A stretch of DNA of 64,000 nt, from the NCBI RefSeq assembly GCF_009914755.1, contig NC_060927.1. The stretch is one strand, 5' to 3'. The DNA comes from the human T2T-CHM13v2.0 reference genome, Homo sapiens. The notes under the pieces were generated by a model. The model saw only the letters and a list, made by a program, of their open reading frames with translations, was not told where the DNA came from and ran no database searches. Position numbers and translations under genes: made by a program. This document shows positions 10,071 through 32,575 of this stretch, piece by piece. Numbering within the stretch: position 1 is the first letter of the stretch; each line of letters opens with the position of its first letter.

Positions 10071-12920
10071 TTGCAGTCCCTCTGAATTCCTCCTTCCCTG
10101 ATCCCCTCCCCTTGTCTTTTTTTTTTTTTTTTTTTTTTTTCACCAAACATGTATTGAGTTTCTATCACATTCCAGGCATTTCCTCTTCTTTCCCTGGACC
10201 TGCGTGTCTTTTCTCTTGTTCGTTTGGACCTGGATGTTGTGTGTGTGTGCATGAGCAAGCCTGCCTGGGAGCGTGCCCGTGTGCCCACATTTGGGCATTG
10301 AGGGCTCTCATTCTCCCTAAGGGTGGCCTTGCCTTGTTTTAGCTCAAAGACAGCACTTGGCTTTCAAGGATATATTATAAATAGAGCCTTGACAGCACTC
10401 TCTTTTCTTATCTGAAAACTGACACGAAGCACAGGCAACTAGGACAAAAAGAAAGAGAACAGGGTCCGTGGTGGAGCAGATAATCAATATCTTTAAATGA
10501 TTCGAGAGCAGAAATTCCCAAATGGGAGGTGAGAAGAGACCTGAAAATGACAGCCTGAGGAAGTTTGTTGGGCTCTCCTAGGGAGTGAGTGGTAGGGCGC
10601 GGTGTTTGAAAAAGCAGATTTCATATTTCAATTTGTTACTTAGAAAAATGTCCCCCAAAAGCTGTTATTCTCATAGTACAAACTATAGAAATTAAAGCTG
10701 TCCAGAACCTTTTTGACCTTTGGGATTATGTAAGAGTTATGGCAATTCCCAATGAAACGGGAGGCGGCCTCTGAATTGTGAGAGCTGAGATCATCACCGT
10801 GTATTTTTAGCCATTAGGGATTTGAATCTAAAAAGCTGGAAAACACTGTTTCATAGAGTCTTCAGAAAAGAAGCAAGGCCTAAAAGTTGCAAGGAGTCAA
10901 TGCTTGAAAGGTTCCCATAGAGTTTGAAAAGGCCATAAAACCTAACTCCCCTATTTTACAGATGAGGCAACAAGAGAAGTCGCTGGCACAAGATCTAATG
11001 CTTATAACAGGATTGGCTGAGCCCAGCATCGGCCTCAACCTGCAGTGGGCGGCGGGGGGGGGGTGGGGTATCAGTAGAAAAGACCAGGGAATCTCTGACA
11101 AGTCGTCCTCTGCTCCTAATAAAGAGAATTAAAATGTGCCTTTAGGAGGCTGGGACCAACCCCAGGTCACTAGCTCAATGAGCCTGAAGGATGCAACTGG
11201 GGAGGCATTTGGAACACAAAAGCAGATACTCCTGCTGTTCTAGATGGCTTCCTAAGAGCCAGGGTTCTTCAGGTCGGTCTTTCCAAGGACCTAAAGTAGT
11301 AGGTTGGACAGCAGGGGATGCGGAGGATCAATGAAGCAGCTGTTGGCTTTCGGTGCATATAAATAATGCACCTCTAAGGCCTAGGGTGTGTTTTGGTTAT
11401 TCTATACAACAAATACCCAAAAAGTGTTGGTGACCCTTGGCCTTGCATTTCCCCAGACTCTGACCCACACCCTGACCTTGACCTGACCCTCAGCCTGAAG
11501 CTGACCCTGAACCTAATCCTTTCGCTGACGCTGACCCTGATTTTGAGCCTCCTGTTGAACCATAGCCTCAGCCTGGCCTGCCATTCACTCTGACACAGGA
11601 CATGACCTTGTCCTTCATCCTGTTTCTCACACTACCATGACTCTCAGCTATGCTCACCCAGACTCTGACCCTGACATGGACTCAGATTCTCACCCTCACA
11701 ATGAACTTGTCTATAGGCAGACTCTAACTCTGAGGCTAACCCTATGCTCACCCTGAATCTGATCCTAATCTTGAACCTGACTCTCACCGTGTCCCCGAAC
11801 ATATGGCCCTCACGCTGACTCTGACCCTCACACTTACCCTCTCAATTTAACCCTACCCCTTACCCTGATGCTGACATTGACCTTTATCGTGATGTTGACC
11901 CTGGACATATACCTCACACTCCTTCTGAATCTGACCTTAATCCTCACCATGACATTCACAATTACTCAGATCCTGAATCTGACCTTCATCACGATCTTGA
12001 CCCTGACCTTGATCTAGATACTCACATGACTCTCTTCCTGACTGAACTCTGACCCTTAACCTGAACCTCACACTGATTCTCACCATGACCTGAGCTTGAC
12101 ACTGAACGTGATGCTAAATAAGCACCTGACCCTGAACTTGGCTCTTACCCTGATTCTACCTTCATCCTCACCCTCACCCTGAGCTTTGTCTGACCCTTAC
12201 CTTAATTTTTTCCCAAACCTTAATTTGAACCTGACACTTATCTAATGTTGACTCTGACCCTTACCCCTAACCTACTAGACACTCAGTCTGACACTAATTT
12301 TCATTCTCACACTGGTGTTGACCCATACTCTTACCCTTACCCTTTCACACTCACCTTGAACCTGACCATAAATCTGGCCCTGTCTCTGAACCCCACCCTA
12401 AACTTTAACCTTCAGAAGACCCTGCTCCACACCCTCCCCGTGACTGAGACCCTGAATCTGCCACTGTCTCTCAATTTCTCATCCTCACTCTTACCACAGC
12501 TCTAATACTTATTCTGACCCTTACCCTCACTCTGAATTTGTCCCTAACCCAAAACCTGTCTCTGACACTGACTTTCACCCTGAACCTCACCATAACTCTG
12601 ACCCTTGGACTTTCCCACCCTCATCATGACCCTGATGAAGCTATGACCCTGACTGTAGCCCTTACCCTCACCCTGATATGAACAGTGACTCAATCCCGAC
12701 CCTGACCCAGACCATCACCCTATCATACTGGTCTTAAATTCATCCTCACCCTGAACCTGACCCAAATTCTGACCCTTATCCTTGTCCTGATCATCACTAT
12801 GACCTTGAAAAGACCCTGACACTCACAGTGACCATCAAATGATTCTACTTCACCACTACCCTAACACTTTAGCTGGGCCAGACACTCATCCTCATCAGGA
12901 CCGTTATGTTCATCTGACTC

Positions 12921-13042
12921 TGCTCACCTTGAGTTTACTATGTATTACATGCTCACCTTGAGTTTACTATGTATTACATGCTCACCTTGAGTTTACTATG
13001 TATTACATGCTCACCTTGAGTTTACTATGTATTACATGCTCA
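12921..13042 (+). repeat. 29-bp minisatellite, 4 perfect copies plus 6 nt
   Basis: TGCTCACCTTGAGTTTACTATGTATTACA x4. Confidence 0.95.
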
Positions 13043-13367
13043 ACCAAATCCTCACTCTAAACCTGACCCTGACCTTTATTCTGATGTTCACCCTAAAATT
13101 GGCCCTCATCTGGCCCTCCCTCTTGCTCTCATCTTGTGTCCATGATCCTGCCCCTAAAAGTATCTCTGACTCTGATATCATGCTGACATTGACTCTAACC
13201 ATCCCACCCCTCTAAAGTTACCCTAAACTTAAATTTCAACCTGTCCCTGGTCGTGACCCTGACCAACAACTCAACTTTGACCCTGATCCTGACCGTCAAC
13301 CTGACACTGACTCTCACCAAGACTCTGACATTCACACTGATCATCAAACTGACTATACTGAGTCTGG

Positions 13368-13965
13368 CTTTAAAAAGTTGTGGTAAAATAAATGTAATAT
13401 AAAATTTACCATCTTAAACATTTTAAAGTATACAGTTCAGTGGCACTAAGTACATTCACGTTGTTGTGCAACCAATCTCCAGAACTCTTTTCATCTCACA
13501 AAACTGAAACTCTGTACCCGTTAAATAACAACTCCCTCTTTTTTCCTTTCCCAGACCCTGGCAACCACCATCATAGTTTCTGTCTCTATAATTTTGAGTA
13601 ATCTAAGTATATAGGTGGAATCATACAGTATTTGTCCTTTGGTGACTGGATCATTTCACTTAGTATAATAACCTTGAGATTCATCCATGTAGTAGCATGT
13701 GTCAGAATTCCCTTCCTTTTTAAGGCTGAATAATATTCGGTATATACCACATTTTATTTATCCATTCATCTGTCCATGGACACTTGGGTTGCTTCTACCT
13801 TTTGCCTGTTGTGAATAATGCTTCTATAAACATGAGCGTTCAAGTATCTCTTTGAGACCCTACTTTCAATTCTTCTGTATATATACCTAGAAGTAGAATT
13901 GCTGGATCATCTAGTAATTTTTAATTTTTTGAGGAACCAACCATATTGTTTTCCATAGTGGCTGT
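13368..13965 (-). mobile_element. Old L1 3' end (L1MB-like) inserted in array A
   Basis: AAAATTTACCATCTTAA...TACAGTTCAGTGGCACTAAGTACATTCAC...GGAATCATACAGTATTTGTCC...AGAATTGCTGGATCAT. Confidence 0.85.
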
Positions 13966-30447: not shown

Positions 30448-30982
30448 ATATACCTAAAGGATTATAAATCATTCTACTATAAAGACACACACACGTATGT
30501 TTATTGCAGCACTATTTACAATAGCAAAGACTTGGAACCAACCCAAATGCCCCTCAGTGATAGACTGGATAAAGAAAATGTGGCATATATATACCTTGGA
30601 AACTGTGCAGCTATAAAAAAGAATGAATTCATGTCCTTTGCAGGGACATGGATAAAGCTGGAAGCCATCATTCTCAGTAAACTAACACAGGAACAGAAAA
30701 CCGAACACCACATGTTCTCACTCATAAGTGGGAGTTGAACAATGAGAAGACATGCATATAGGGAGGGGTACATCACACACTGGGGCCTGTCATGGGGGTG
30801 CGGGTGCAAGGGGACGGATAGCCTTAGAAGAAATACCAAATGCATGTGGGGCTTAAAACCTAGATGATGGCTTCATGGGTGCAGCAAACGACCACAGCAT
30901 GTGTATACCTATGTAACAAACCTGCATATTCTACACATGTATCCCAGAACTTAAAGTAAAATGAAAAAAAAAAAAAAAAAGG
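30448..30982 (+). mobile_element. L1PA 3' end (ORF2 C-terminus, 3' UTR, polyA)
   Basis: KNEFMSFAGTWIKLEAIILSKLTQEQKT ORF2 tail; ACCTATGTAACAAACCTGC; A-tail; TSD-like GAAAGAAAAAAT. Confidence 0.95.
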
Positions 30983-31530
30983 AAAGAAAAAAATCTATTG
31001 GCAAAGTTGACCTTAACAAGGGTAGATGTCCCAAGCTTGCTTCGTTGTAAGAATTACTGGAGACACTTGTTCAACAGCGAGAACTCCCACACATCTTGGA
31101 ATAATTCTAATTTCACTCCATATGTGATCTACACACATCAGCAGCTCTAAGAACTCCCATTTTAAAAAAAACATTTTAAAATGAAAAAAGAGACAAAAGA
31201 AGGAATTCTGCTAAGTTACACTGGGTTCACCACTTAAATAACTGGTGGCAAGTGTCTGAGTGTGAATCCTGAAGTTTGACATCACTCAGTCTTGAAAAAT
31301 TAGTTTACCATAACAAAAGCTTGACACATTATTTTGCTTTGTTCAAGACCAAATTTAAAACGTAAAATTATACATGTATTACGTTGTTTTTAACTAAATG
31401 ACATAGCAGTGGTTGTCTTCTTAAATGGTTAAGTTTTATAATATTTTATATTAATACAATTCGTAAAGATTTAATATATTAACTTAATTGTAATTTCTAG
31501 ATTCGTAACTAACTTTTGAAACTTAGTTCT

Positions 31531-31832
31531 GGCTGGGTGCAGTGGCTAACACCTGTAATCCCAACACTTTGGGAGGCCGAGGCGGGAGGATCTCTTGAGC
31601 CCAGGAGTTTGAGACCAGTCTCAGCAACATGGCAAAACCTTGTTTCTATAAATAATTAAAAAATTAGCCAGGCATGGTGCCATGTGTCTGTAGTTCCAGC
31701 TACTTGGGAGGCTGAGGTGGGAGGATCACCTGAGCCCAGGAATTTGTGGCTGCAGTGAGTGGTGATCGTGCCACTGCACTCCAGCCTGGGTGATGAGAGT
31801 GAGACCCTGTCTCAAAAAAAGGAAAAAAAAAA
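31531..31832 (+). mobile_element. AluJ
   Basis: Full dimer. Confidence 0.9.
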
Positions 31833-32575
31833 ACTTAAGCCCAATTCAATTAATAAATTACCCTTAAATGCTTGTAATTTCTAAAAGAAAAAATACAAAA
31901 ACTGCTGGCTAAATATAATTTTAACTTACCCTTATTAAAACATCAGTAGACTAATAAAATATAAAAATACCTTTGGGTGCTAATACATAGATGTTTGATT
32001 TTGCGTTTTTAAATTTTTAAAATAATGGGAGATAAATGCTCATTAAAAATTAGAGCATGGTTTTTAACTGTTTCCCCTTTGGGTGTCCCTTATGTCTAGA
32101 GAAAAAAAGAAAAGACTGCTTACTTTAAAGATGCTAATTATTTTGGTATAGTTCATAAAAGTAATCCATTACATCCAGAATATTTACTGCAACAATTCTA
32201 CAATGAATTGATTACATTCTAGGGTCTGCTTGTTGAGCTGACACAGTGAGTTCAGGTCCTAGTACTCTATAGGATTACTTTGAGTTCATCTGCTTATGTT
32301 TCTACCTCCCTCATTACACTATGAGCCTCACAATGGCAGAGAATGAAATTATCTTTGTATTCCCTATTCCAAATTTAGCCCCGATACACAGTAGGCACTC
32401 AGTATTGTATAATGGAAAGAGGCAAAGAGAAGAATGGAATATTCTATGCAGTTTATTTACCTTCTTCCCCTAGGCATGAAGTTTTATTAATAATGAGATA
32501 ATTGACCTAATGATGCAATGCTAGAATTGCTGGACTTACTTATAGGAGGAAACTTGCATGAATATCACGAGAATG

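What the first reader, a model, noticed from the sequence alone, without database searches (positions are those of the whole stretch)
11431..32140. Ancient + / - / + triplicated locus in which each unit couples a telomere-variant hexamer array to shared unique modules
Seen in the sequence: (1) Arrays A and C end in the same sequence (CATCACCAAGTTGAGTTTGAACATG...CACTCTAGTTTC at 17950 vs CATCACTAAGCTGAGTATGACCATG...CATTCTAGTTTC at 28352; then TTTTCAAATATRCTGCTTTGATT near 18400 and 28487). (2) Module X (CAGACATTCCTCTCAAAA...TTATTGCTTC...GTAAACTGA) lies at about 19410-19580, 19846-19970 and 21010-21170 on + and 25470-25640 on -. (3) Module Y (GATAAATGCTCAT...TATGTCTRGAG-A-tract) lies at about 21215-21490 and 31920-32140 on + and 24485-24700 and 25165-25430 on -. 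(4) Module Z (TTGGATA...TTGACCTAATTTTATTTG) lies at 21785-21880 on + and 24135-24245 on -. Module order is mirrored about 23.6 kb. Inference: a multi-kb unit (promoter-like end, AT-rich modules, hexamer array) was duplicated in inverted orientation and duplicated again. The copies are heavily diverged and carry different TE insertions. A repeat masker would probably split this into simple repeats and unique DNA and miss the architecture. Candidate identities: divergent repeat-lncRNA or piRNA-like locus, fossil subtelomere complex, or an unusual ERV1-internal derivative.
Basis: partly seen in the sequence, partly recalled or inferred. Interest (0 to 1): 0.85.

Follow-up and report, generated by a model that had tools for sequence, protein, structure and literature searches.

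The report
Decayed telomere-like repeat block, anciently rearranged
Upstream of the first coding exon of SLC25A26 lies about 8 kb of very worn telomere-variant-like six-base repeats in three blocks (forward, reverse, forward), reshuffled long ago by local duplications together with scraps of an old retrovirus-like repeat; it looks like a genomic fossil, not a working unit.

Summary
There are three period-6 arrays: A 11440-17950 (C-rich), B 25650-26660 (G-rich) and C 26680-28350 (C-rich). Modules X, Y and Z lie at the stated places, mirrored about 23 kb.

- Y and Z are not unique. They are collinear pieces of an old, low-copy, ERV-like interspersed repeat that runs on into the pol-like stretch 21960-23028. 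It occurs at 8 or more other loci, and none of the ten 10-kb stretches fetched around copies carries an array.
- Real local duplication is shown for X-Y (21016-21648 vs 25622-25013, inverted). These two copies share a private X|Y junction and form a 96/97-supported clade. It is also shown for the array tails (17950-18442 vs 28350-28510) and the tandem X copies.
- X, the tail and the left flank have no copies elsewhere.
- The third unit's Y sits in the repeat's normal upstream context, so it is not a copy of units 1 or 2.
- The arrays share no positional register, even next to the homologous tails.
- The array consensus is CCCTGA (TCAGGG); canonical CCCTAA makes up 1.2-1.75%.

Best reading: an old interstitial TCAGGG-type minisatellite block that drove local fold-back and duplication events and then decayed. 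Interest is low to moderate.

The parts
11440..17950 (+). Array A. Degenerate period-6 array, C-rich on the + strand, consensus CTGACC (= CCCTGA, complement TCAGGG). About 5.4 kb net. It is interrupted by an L1-like insert at 13355-13966 and a MaLR-type solo LTR at 16700-17170.
   Evidence: The inserts match other copies in the window and in fetched loci. The family names of the inserts are recalled from reading.
12921..13042 (+). Perfect 29-bp tandem repeat, 4.2 copies, inside array A. It is a young local expansion.
   Evidence: 100% matches, score 244; sequence.
17950..18442 (+). Tail A. Non-repeat sequence that ends array A, split by an Alu at about 18076-18393. Paralogous to tail C.
   Evidence: 67.8% over 183 bp, E 2e-18; z 26 vs 300 shuffles, alignment shown. 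No copy of the paralogous tail C (28330-28640) was found elsewhere in the genome; tail A itself was not used as a genome query.
19396..21170 (+). Three tandem X copies (19396-19534, 19846-19974, 21016-21170). They are separated by an Alu fragment (19628-19845) and by a MaLR-type LTR (19985-20996) that itself carries two Alus.
   Evidence: X has no match elsewhere in the genome. The MaLR name is recalled; another copy in the window matches at 9333-9476.
21150..23028 (+). Fragment of an old ERV-like interspersed repeat: Y1 (to about 21464), a spacer, Z (21668-21922), then a pol-like stretch (about 21960-23028, RNase H / integrase remnant).
   Evidence: Collinear with copies at chr1:109.68 Mb, chrX:66.43 Mb, chr2:98.21 Mb, chr2:43.63 Mb, chr7:139.37 Mb and chr3:35.42 Mb. 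Pfam rve scores only E 0.014, below its cut-off. Foamy-virus integrase chains in the PDB score E 0.3.
23336..23765 (+). Stretch D. Repeat-derived, with a 69% relative at chr12:109.284 Mb. It overlaps the end of the first exon of LOC107986095.
   Evidence: exon coordinates from the supplied annotation.
23761..24088 (.). CpG-rich sequence holding the annotated TSS (23963, - strand) of LOC107986095. It is the spacer at the mirror centre.
   Evidence: No match for this part of the query. GC is 0.54-0.57 over 23000-23999, which spans this stretch. TSS from the supplied annotation.
24092..24696 (-). Unit 2b. Y'' (24508-24696) through Z' (24092-24358), a fragment of the ERV-like repeat in reverse orientation.
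24755..25034 (.). Repeat R, a mid-copy interspersed repeat lying between Y'' and Y'.
   Evidence: 32 of the 43 listed matches fall on this part (68-80% identity). Two copies flank the chrX:66.4 Mb element.
25013..25651 (-). Unit 2a. X' (25506-25651) joined to Y' and its spacer (25013-25501). This is the inverted copy of 21016-21648.
   Evidence: 70.9% over 649 bp, E 3e-94; clade 96/97; shared X|Y junction.
25650..26660 (-). Array B. The same hexamer array in reverse (G-rich on the + strand). It abuts X' directly with no tail.
26674..26688 (.). Head-to-head switch point between arrays B and C: GGGTCAA-G-TTGACCC, with 7-base perfect inverted arms.
   Evidence: Read. There is no wider mirror homology across it (Bstart-Cstart score 23, z -1.6).
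26680..28350 (+). Array C, C-rich on the + strand.
28350..28510 (+). Tail C, paralogous to tail A.
28580..30251 (+). Repeat-derived stretches of unit 3: 28580-28816 (relative at chr12:109.28 Mb, next to the D-like piece), 29002-29634 and 30064-30251 (relatives at chr2:98.2 Mb downstream of the pol-like part, at chrX:82.47 Mb and at chr12). An Alu lies at 29772-30050.
31275..32160 (+). Pre-Y (31275-31516), an Alu (31518-31841) and Y3 (31842-32160). This fragment of the ERV-like repeat keeps the family's own upstream sequence.

Best explanation
The locus is an old interstitial block of telomere-variant-like hexamer minisatellite. The unit is C-T-[G/C/A/T]-A-C-C, which is TNAGGG on the other strand and mostly TCAGGG. 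The block had taken up pieces of an ERV-like element and was then rearranged in place by several local duplications.

SHOWN:
(a) Three arrays total 8058 bp net and lie in + / - / + order.
(b) There is an inverted duplication of a segment that carries the private junction between locus-specific X and the ERV-like fragment.
(c) There is a direct duplication of the array end plus tail.
(d) X is tandemly triplicated, and the triplication predates a MaLR LTR insertion.
(e) Y, Z, the pol-like stretch, D, E and pre-Y are interspersed-repeat DNA found at other loci without arrays.
(f) The arrays share no register with one another.

INFERRED:
- The G-rich, telomere-like arrays were hard to replicate and prone to breakage.
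- Repair by fold-back or template switching (break-induced or microhomology-mediated) produced the inverted copy and the spacer-less head-to-head B|C joint.
- The arrays kept turning over by slippage or unequal exchange after the duplications, which erased their register, and then decayed.
- The events date to roughly 50-80 Myr ago, from K2P 0.21-0.35 at a recalled neutral rate of about 2.2e-9 per site per year.
- Today the DNA is most likely inert, apart from supplying a CpG-rich start and repeat-derived exons to a predicted lncRNA whose intron reads array A as a UCAGGG-like RNA.
For: - Arrays and orientation.
- Unit profile: C .61, T .85, G .51, A .84, C .56, C .60 in A, with B and C alike. 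An alignment-free check by base-specific lag-6 matches fits this profile by my own calculation.
- Inverted X-Y pair: 70.9% over 649 bp, E 3e-94; z 95. Y1 and Y' form a clade with 96/97 support.
- Only U1 and U2a replace the family's upstream sequence by X, at the same point.
- Tails: E 2e-18, z 26.
- X, tail C and the left flank gave no hit elsewhere in the genome.
- Repeat nature of Y/Z/pol: 7 substantial matches at 6 other loci among the 13 matches, 2 more loci, and collinear chains into 21960-23028.
- No arrays in ten 10-kb stretches around copies.
- No register between arrays: Aend-Cend ranks 816th of 1407 window pairs.
- Passages of review PMC6410037 state that ITSs trigger fragility and gross rearrangements, including inversions in yeast.
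Against: - Outside the Y1/Y' pair the trees are star-like. Z and Z' are no closer to each other than to the chr1 copy (about 75% each), and Y'' and Y3 are unresolved. Some fragments could therefore be separate insertions.
- Unit 3 lacks X and Z, and its pieces (E, then pre-Y-Y) are not in the order seen in other copies. No simple triplication model fits.
- The arrays are more degenerate than the flanking paralogs although they must have turned over after the duplication. Mean retention of the consensus is 0.66, against about 0.85 per lineage for the paralogs. This needs either birth heterogeneity or faster mutation at the C/G positions, and it is unexplained.
- No cross-species data could be used, so the ages rest on a recalled rate.
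- The genome search has limited sensitivity. It missed the known X3 and X' when queried with X1, so 'unique' means no copy at about 70% or more over about 150 bp or more.
Confidence: 0.6

Rival explanations
1. Independent insertions. A pre-existing hexamer block was hit several times by copies of the same ERV-like family. Only the X-Y pair and the tails are local duplicates, and the mirror order is largely coincidence.
For: Star-like trees for Z/Z', Y'' and Y3. Z' is as close to the chr1 copy (75.4%) as to Z (72.1% over 513 columns spanning Y-Z). Y3 keeps the family's own upstream sequence.
Against: Only 8 other loci were detected in 3.1 Gb. By inference, three or four independent hits inside 11 kb would be very unlikely even if the true copy number were tens of times higher. 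Y copies within the window are mutually closer (66.6-74.4%) than to outside copies (54.8-67.2%).
Confidence: 0.15
2. Fossil telomere-telomere fusion or subtelomere complex. The head-to-head B|C joint is the scar of two ancient chromosome ends, and the mirrored flanks are paralogous subtelomeric DNA.
For: The G-rich-then-C-rich head-to-head geometry at 26674-26688 is that of the 2q13 fusion ITS (geometry recalled; the class is described in the PMC6410037 passage). The variable unit position gives TCAGGG/TGAGGG/TTAGGG/TAAGGG = .51/.22/.13/.14. The best genome matches of the arrays are telomere-proximal tracts.
Against: The canonical CCCTAA class is only 1.2-1.75% and is not the leading one-off variant. 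Tail C, X and the left flank have no paralogs at any chromosome end or elsewhere. There is no mirror homology across the joint. The order MAGI1-SLC25A26-LRIG1 is, as far as I recall, conserved in mouse and chicken; this was not tested here.
Confidence: 0.07
3. Functional repeat locus. The arrays are kept as a dense one-strand cluster of nuclear-receptor half-sites (NR2C/F-type binding to GGGTCA), or as a repeat-rich lncRNA/small-RNA source.
For: 162 RGGTCA sites lie on the G-rich strand of 8058 bp against 1 on the other strand. That is 19-23 per kb against 0.77 per kb (both strands) in 33-64 kb. T2 and A4 of the unit are retained at 82-87%. The annotated lncRNA starts at the mirror centre and reads array A in the G-rich sense. 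NR2C/F binding to TCAGGG repeats is stated in PMC6410037 passages and the PMC7691514 abstract.
Against: The sequence is heavily decayed. Only 7-8.5% of hexamers are intact, a phase slip occurs every 51-57 bp, and 0-1 G-quadruplex motifs remain. The arms are about 71-78% identical, too diverged for long double-stranded RNA. There are no expression, binding or conservation data, and no paper names LOC107986095.
Confidence: 0.08
4. One large undescribed composite mobile element whose body includes a hexamer array, tail, X and the ERV-like part.
For: Each array lies beside ERV-like DNA, and the order array - (tail) - X - Y recurs.
Against: No array, tail or X was found at any of the other loci holding the ERV-like repeat. 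None was found beside other TCAGGG arrays either: all 3743 HSPs fall inside arrays. X, tail C and the left flank are single-locus.
Confidence: 0.03

Closest known systems
Interstitial telomeric sequences (ITS), degenerate/subtelomeric type and the head-to-head 'fusion' type (2q13-q14)
   Same: Tandem hexamers of the TNAGGG kind lie at an internal chromosomal site. One joint is head-to-head. ITSs are known to be unstable and to provoke rearrangements (PMC6410037 passages).
   Different: The consensus is TCAGGG and canonical TTAGGG makes up about 1.2-1.75% of hexamers. The net 8 kb is far longer than the 16-1840 bp range given for 522 ITS loci of T2T-CHM13 (passage of preprint 10.1101/2025.05.15.654290). 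It is too degenerate to meet that census's 2-mismatch rule. No subtelomeric paralogy was found in the flanks.
TCAGGG variant-repeat tracts at the base of human telomeres (NR2C/F-binding)
   Same: The unit is the same. The best genome-wide matches of the arrays are such tracts. The pattern (CCCTGA)3 with up to 1 mismatch gives 775 hits against 55 for the reversed control, and most of the 100 listed hits lie at chromosome ends.
   Different: The site is interstitial, ancient and decayed, and it is not adjacent to any canonical array.
[quoted passage not shown]
   Same: It is a non-terminal, irregular cluster enriched in telomere-like motifs (passages).
   Different: This locus is not named in the main text: a search of the text found 'chr3' and 'SLC25A26' 0 times. 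The supplements were not seen.
Inverted duplication / DUP-TRP/INV-DUP-type rearrangements from fold-back or template switching (recalled from the human structural-variation literature)
   Same: There is a forward-reverse-forward order, a spacer-less inverted joint (B|C), and an inverted copy sharing a private junction.
   Different: Only parts are collinear, the third unit is not a faithful copy, and the events are tens of millions of years old and overlaid by later insertions.
Old endogenous retrovirus internal fragments (LTR-retroelement remnants)
   Same: Y, Z, 21960-23028 and further pieces are dispersed and collinear at other loci. Weak integrase similarity was found.
   Different: No LTR pair was identified. 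Pfam support is below cut-off, and the family name is unknown because no repeat library was available. The arrays, tail and X are not part of it.

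Membership tests
Interstitial telomeric sequence (telomere-derived) | Tandem array of 6-bp units at an internal site | tested here: met
   Lag-6 match of 0.46-0.48 against 0.28 in controls, with no higher-order period. TRF finds period 6. The window is chr3:66.2 Mb.
Interstitial telomeric sequence (telomere-derived) | Units are TTAGGG or derive from it | tested here: inconclusive
   The CCCTAA class is 1.16-1.75% against 6.9-8.5% for CCCTGA, and it is not the commonest one-off variant. Variation does concentrate at the position that distinguishes the known telomere variants TNAGGG.
Fusion ITS (telomere-telomere fusion scar) | Head-to-head arrays (G-rich then C-rich on one strand) | tested here: met
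   Array B (G-rich) meets array C (C-rich) at 26674-26688.
Fusion ITS (telomere-telomere fusion scar) | Flanks paralogous to subtelomeric DNA of other chromosome ends | tested here: not met
   Tail C, X and the left flank gave no hits elsewhere. The flanks of 19 other array loci share nothing with this locus outside the arrays.
Fusion ITS (telomere-telomere fusion scar) | Synteny break at the site in outgroup species | not testable with these tools
   No other vertebrate genome was available. Recalled gene order argues against a break.
Local segmental (inverted) duplication | Collinear paralogous segments that include a private junction | tested here: met
   21016-21648 vs 25622-25013. The X|Y junction is shared only by these two copies among 7 aligned copies.
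Local segmental (inverted) duplication | Local copies are each other's closest relatives | tested here: inconclusive
   Y1 and Y' form a clade with 96/97 support. Z/Z', Y'' and Y3 are unresolved against outside copies.
Triplicated unit (array + tail + X + Y + Z in each of three copies) | All modules present, in the same order, in each unit | tested here: not met
   Unit 2 lacks the tail. Unit 3 lacks X and Z, and its Y has a different upstream context.
Triplicated unit (array + tail + X + Y + Z in each of three copies) | Arrays are homologous position by position | tested here: not met
   Anchored window pairs are not outliers among 1407 between-array pairs (z -1.6 to +1.0). Many registers score equally.
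Endogenous retrovirus (LTR retroelement) internal sequence | Dispersed copies that are collinear over kilobases | tested here: met
   chr1, chrX (two loci), chr2 (two loci), chr3, chr7 and chr13.
Endogenous retrovirus (LTR retroelement) internal sequence | Recognisable pol domains | tested here: inconclusive
   rve scores E 0.014 and 16 bits against a cut-off of 32.6. With stops read as X it scores E 0.11. No rve or other pol domain was found in the 9 read-through frames of three other copies; the only hits, in one frame, belong to an inserted RPL7-like pseudogene. RNase H and integrase motifs were read by eye from recall.
Endogenous retrovirus (LTR retroelement) internal sequence | Flanking LTR pair | tested here: inconclusive
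   Repeat R flanks the chrX copy on both sides in one orientation, 27.6 kb apart, but it was not shown to be an LTR.

The most novel reading that the evidence does not exclude
This may be the largest interstitial TCAGGG-type array of the human genome. It holds about 8 kb and 162 one-strand GGGTCA/AGGTCA half-sites, and it is overlooked by ITS censuses because of its decay. It may also be a true relic of telomeric DNA, either a healed break or a chromosome-end fusion, whose instability generated the fold-back architecture. If so, it could still act as a strong NR2C/F landing pad, and hence as a preferred contact or insertion site for ALT telomeres.
Probability: 0.1. Interest if true: 0.65.

Novelty: new member of a known kind. 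Interest (0 to 1): 0.33.

Why it matters
If the reading holds, the locus is a worked example of how a telomere-like interstitial minisatellite can seed inverted and direct local duplications and then fade until repeat maskers see only scraps. It also shows that apparently unique 'shared modules' in such loci can be low-copy retroelement debris.

Practical value is modest. It explains the odd composition upstream of the first coding exon of SLC25A26 and the repeat-derived exons of a predicted lncRNA. It also flags a very dense one-strand cluster of nuclear-receptor half-sites that could be checked in existing NR2C2/NR2F2 or shelterin ChIP data remapped to T2T-CHM13.

One feature is unexplained and may interest people who study repeat mutation: T and A of the unit are kept at about 85%, but the C/G positions at only 50-65%.

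Tried and rejected
- Coding reading of the arrays: rejected. Stop-to-stop frames reach at most 153 aa within the arrays and read as LT/PD/GQ-type low-complexity strings.
- Known RNA families: only Alu-derived matches and one sub-threshold U2-like match in 10.5-33.5 kb.
- 6-mer block shuffles as a null for array-to-array homology: rejected as a control, because phase slips make the shuffle destroy the repeat. It was replaced by the empirical null of all between-array window pairs, under which the apparent A-start/B-start match (z about 7.5 against shuffles) drops to z 1.0.
- Higher-order repeat structure: none. The autocorrelation decays smoothly over lags 6, 12, 18 and onward.
- Arrays as part of the ERV-like family: rejected.
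- Tail or X beside other TCAGGG arrays: none.
- Naming the ERV-like family or its class: failed. No repeat library was available, and Pfam on three other copies found only an inserted RPL7-like pseudogene.
- Genome search with 30051-31517 was swamped by the L1 fragment it contains. A repeat with 30986-31517 found nothing, although local BLAST had shown short matches. This shows the limited sensitivity of the genome search.
- Earlier findings of this scan were not open.
- Literature: no paper names LOC107986095. No paper among the listings links SLC25A26 to telomere-like repeats.

Full report
**1. What is in the sequence**

The window is T2T-CHM13 chr3:66,216,001-66,280,000 (supplied annotation; confirmed).

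Three stretches carry a strong 6-base periodicity with strong strand skew:
- Array A, 11440-17950, C-rich on the + strand.
- Array B, 25650-26660, G-rich on the + strand.
- Array C, 26680-28350, C-rich on the + strand.

Supporting measurements:
- TRF reports period-6 rows with units CCCTGA/CTGACC at 61-68% matches.
- GC skew reaches -0.57 in A and C and +0.5 in B.
- The lag-6 match is 0.46-0.48, against 0.28 in two control stretches. It declines smoothly over multiples of 6, so there is no higher-order repeat.
- The CCCTGA rotation class (complement TCAGGG) makes up 6.9-8.5% of hexamers, against 0.15-0.30% in three controls. The canonical telomere class CCCTAA makes up 1.16-1.75% and is not the commonest one-off variant.
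- A scan of all 64 kb finds this kind of skewed periodicity nowhere else.
- Array A is interrupted at 13355-13966 and 16700-17170 by two interspersed repeats that also match elsewhere. Reading, I take them to be an L1 piece and a MaLR-type solo LTR; these names are recalled.

**2. The unit**

I phased the arrays with a simple Viterbi pass. Array A gives C .61, T .85, G .51, A .84, C .56, C .60, and arrays B and C are nearly the same. A phase slip occurs every 51-57 bp. An alignment-free check with base-specific lag-6 matches fits these figures by my own calculation.

Two things stand out:
- The third position splits G/C/A/T = .51/.22/.13/.14. On the other strand this reads TCAGGG/TGAGGG/TTAGGG/TAAGGG, the position at which known human telomere variants differ. 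The variant names appear in passages of the preprint read.
- T and A are kept in 82-87% of units but the C/G positions in only 49-65%. From recalled mutation spectra, that gap is wider than ordinary neutral decay of a once-perfect array should give. I leave this unexplained. It could reflect birth heterogeneity or damage-prone G runs.

The G-rich strand carries 162 RGGTCA half-sites in 8058 bp, against 1 on the other strand. That is 19-23 per kb, against 0.77 per kb (both strands) in 33-64 kb. Only 0-1 canonical G-quadruplex motifs survive.

**3. The modules**

Each pair beats all 300 dinucleotide shuffles, with z from 20 to 95.

| Pair | Identity (gaps excluded) | K2P |
|---|---|---|
| Tail A / tail C | 74% | 0.32 |
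| X1 / X' | 80% | 0.24 |
| X1 / X2 | 75% | 0.32 |
| X1 / X3 | 72.5% | 0.35 |
| X3-Y1 / X'-Y' | 78% over 594 bases | 0.27 |
| Z / Z' | 78% | 0.26 |
| Y3 / Y'' | 81.5% | 0.21 |

The order on the + strand is:
- array A, tail, three X copies, Y1, Z;
- a centre of about 2.2 kb;
- Z', Y'', repeat R, Y', X', array B (all in reverse);
- array C, tail, about 3.3 kb, Y3.

The three X copies are tandem once an Alu fragment and a MaLR-type LTR (19985-20996, itself holding two Alus) are set aside.

**4. Are the modules unique?**

They are not. The whole assembly could be searched.

Genome matches:
- The X3-Y-Z stretch (21016-21920) gave 13 matches: itself, 4 local matches, 7 substantial matches at six other loci, and one trivial 33-base match.
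- The six loci are chr1:109.68 Mb, chrX:66.42-66.43 Mb, chr2:43.63 Mb, chr3:35.42 Mb, chr2:98.21 Mb and chr7:139.37 Mb.
- Two more loci match Z' (chr13:69.56 Mb and chrX:48.25 Mb).

I fetched ten 10-kb stretches around copies and compared them with 10.5-33.5 kb of the window. The homology elsewhere starts at about 21150, the start of Y. It then runs collinearly through Z into 21960-23028:
- chr1: 21612-22174, then 22194-22956.
- chr2:98.21 Mb: 21696-22837, then 22842-23028.
- chrX: 21381-22029, 22049-22173, 22375-22857.

The stretch 21960-23028 reads, by eye and from recall, as a retroviral RNase H / integrase remnant. Formal support is weak:
- Pfam rve scores E 0.014, below its cut-off.
- Foamy-virus integrase chains in the PDB score E 0.3.
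- No pol domain was found in three other copies.

Further stretches are also repeat-derived:
- 23336-23765 and 28580-28816 (chr12:109.28 Mb).
- 29002-29634 and 30064-30251 (chr2:98.2 Mb downstream of the pol-like part, chrX:82.47 Mb, chr12).
- 31275-31516, just upstream of Y3 (chr2, chr7, chrX).
- Repeat R at 24755-25034, which takes 32 of the 43 listed matches.

None of the ten outside stretches contains a CCCTGA-type array or any BLAST match to the arrays.

By contrast, X, tail C with the following 300 bp and the left flank 10300-11460 found nothing elsewhere. There is a caveat. The genome search missed the known X3 and X' when queried with X1, so it cannot see short matches at about 75% identity.

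**5. Is there real local duplication?**

Yes, at least in part.

- An alignment of seven copies around the start of Y shows a private junction. Unit 1 and unit 2a both replace the family's own upstream sequence by X at the same A-rich point. Unit 3 and the four outside copies keep the family sequence.
- In a tree of the Y region, Y1 and Y' form a clade with 96/97 support. All other forks are open.
- The tails of arrays A and C are paralogous and start at the array edge.

The X-Y inverted pair, the tail pair and the X triplet are therefore local duplications.

For Z/Z', Y'' and Y3 the trees are star-like. Z' is as close to the chr1 copy (75.4%) as to Z. Independent insertion cannot be excluded from the tree. 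However, with only about 8 other loci detected in 3.1 Gb, several hits inside 11 kb would be very unlikely (inference). Within the Y region the window copies are also mutually closer (66.6-74.4%) than to outside copies (54.8-67.2%).

**6. The arrays are not copies of one another in register**

With all 1407 between-array pairs of 300-bp windows as the null (mean score 35.5, sd 7.8, maximum 67), the anchored pairs are ordinary:
- A-end vs C-end, next to the homologous tails: score 34, rank 816.
- A-start vs B-start: score 43, z 1.0.
- B-start vs C-start, across the head-to-head joint: score 23.

An in-register pair at the tails' level of identity would score about 100 (my arithmetic). BLAST likewise gives dozens of equally good 59-60% alignments in different registers. 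The arrays align to true telomeres at the same 59-61%.

So the arrays turned over, or grew, after the tail duplication. Even so, they are now more degenerate than the tails, with mean retention of the consensus at 0.66.

**7. The joints**

- B and C meet at GGGTCAA-G-TTGACCC (26674-26688), with no spacer and no wider mirror homology.
- The other mirror centre lies between Z (ending at 21922) and Z' (24092). It is filled by the pol-like stretch, an Alu, the repeat-derived stretch D and a CpG-rich piece of about 330 bp with no match elsewhere (23761-24088). That piece holds the annotated start of LOC107986095.
- That lncRNA's second exon (21337-21379, - strand) lies inside Y1.
- Its long intron reads array A in the G-rich sense.

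**8. Comparison with what is known**

- Array matches genome-wide. The best matches of array A (14000-16000) are telomere-proximal variant tracts. Of 32 non-self matches, 15 lie within 13 kb of a contig start. Nine more lie at high coordinates that I take to be q-arm ends; two of these were checked against lengths printed and the rest are recalled. The remainder are short interstitial tracts such as chr21:44.512 Mb.
- Pattern search. The pattern (CCCTGA)3 with up to one mismatch gives 775 hits against 55 for the reversed control, and most of the 100 listed hits lie at chromosome ends.
- Review PMC6410037 (passages only). It classes human ITSs as short, subtelomeric-degenerate and fusion types. 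[quoted passage not shown] It describes ITS-driven fragility and rearrangement, and NR2C/F binding to TCAGGG.
- Preprint 10.1101/2025.05.15.654290 (one passage). It counts 522 ITS loci of 16-1840 bp in T2T-CHM13 under a rule of at most 2 mismatches per repeat. This locus would mostly fail that rule.
- Preprint 10.64898/2026.03.19.712643 (passages). It describes 'diffuse clusters' of telomere-like motifs in T2T-CHM13. It does not name chr3 or SLC25A26 in its main text, and its supplements were not seen.
- No paper names LOC107986095, and the listings show nothing on this locus.

**9. Verdict**

The interpretation needs correcting in three ways:
- Y and Z are retroelement debris rather than unique modules.
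- The third 'unit' is not a copy of the same unit.
- The arrays are not duplicated in register.

What remains is an old interstitial TCAGGG-type minisatellite block that was rearranged by an inverted duplication, a direct duplication and a tandem duplication. At a recalled rate of 2.2e-9 per site per year, K2P of 0.21-0.35 puts these events at roughly 50-80 Myr ago. The block was then peppered with Alu, L1 and MaLR insertions.

I rate it a new member of known kinds (a degenerate interstitial telomere-like cluster and an ancient local inverted duplication). Interest is low to moderate. The bolder reading, a true telomeric relic that still acts as a nuclear-receptor landing pad, is not excluded, but I give it about 10%.

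Noticed in passing
window 12921-13042: A perfect 29-bp tandem repeat (4.2 copies, 100% matches) sits inside the otherwise heavily decayed array A. It is probably a recent, possibly polymorphic, minisatellite.
   Followed up: no
window 24362-24541 (+): A sub-threshold U2 snRNA match (Rfam 31.3 bits against a gathering score of 46, E 0.0063). The first roughly 35 bases read like the U2 5' end and seem flanked by a short direct repeat. It may be a truncated U2 retro-fragment between Z' and Y''.
   Followed up: partly
L047 about 900-1265 (chr1:109.680 Mb): The chr1 copy of the ERV-like repeat carries an inserted RPL7-like processed pseudogene (Pfam Ribosomal_L30 5e-17, Ribosomal_L30_N 4e-11).
   Followed up: no
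L014 1291-2019 (chr21:44.512 Mb): Another interstitial TCAGGG-type array of about 0.7 kb. It is much better preserved, with the leading rotation class at 25% of hexamers. It shares nothing with this locus outside the repeat.
   Followed up: partly
window 21337-21379 and 23671-23963 (- strand): Exon 2 of the predicted lncRNA LOC107986095 lies inside module Y1 (ERV-like DNA, antisense). Exon 1 overlaps the repeat-derived stretch D and a CpG-rich piece with no match elsewhere. The transcript model is therefore largely repeat-built.
   Followed up: partly
arrays A, B, C (11440-17950, 25650-28350): Within the hexamer, T (position 2) and A (position 4) are retained at 82-87% while the C/G positions are at 49-65%. 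G is nearly absent from the C-rich strand except at position 3. This is unexplained by simple neutral decay.
   Followed up: partly
window 25655-25690: Array B ends in a small palindrome (cattgtgtaaggtcaggtacacaatg) followed by a short (TA)n run, just before X' begins.
   Followed up: no
window 36902-38698: A separate 1.8-kb stretch with period-6-compatible periodicity but no strand skew. It matches the AT-rich low-complexity run at 29641-29778, so it is probably a TA-rich simple repeat.
   Followed up: no
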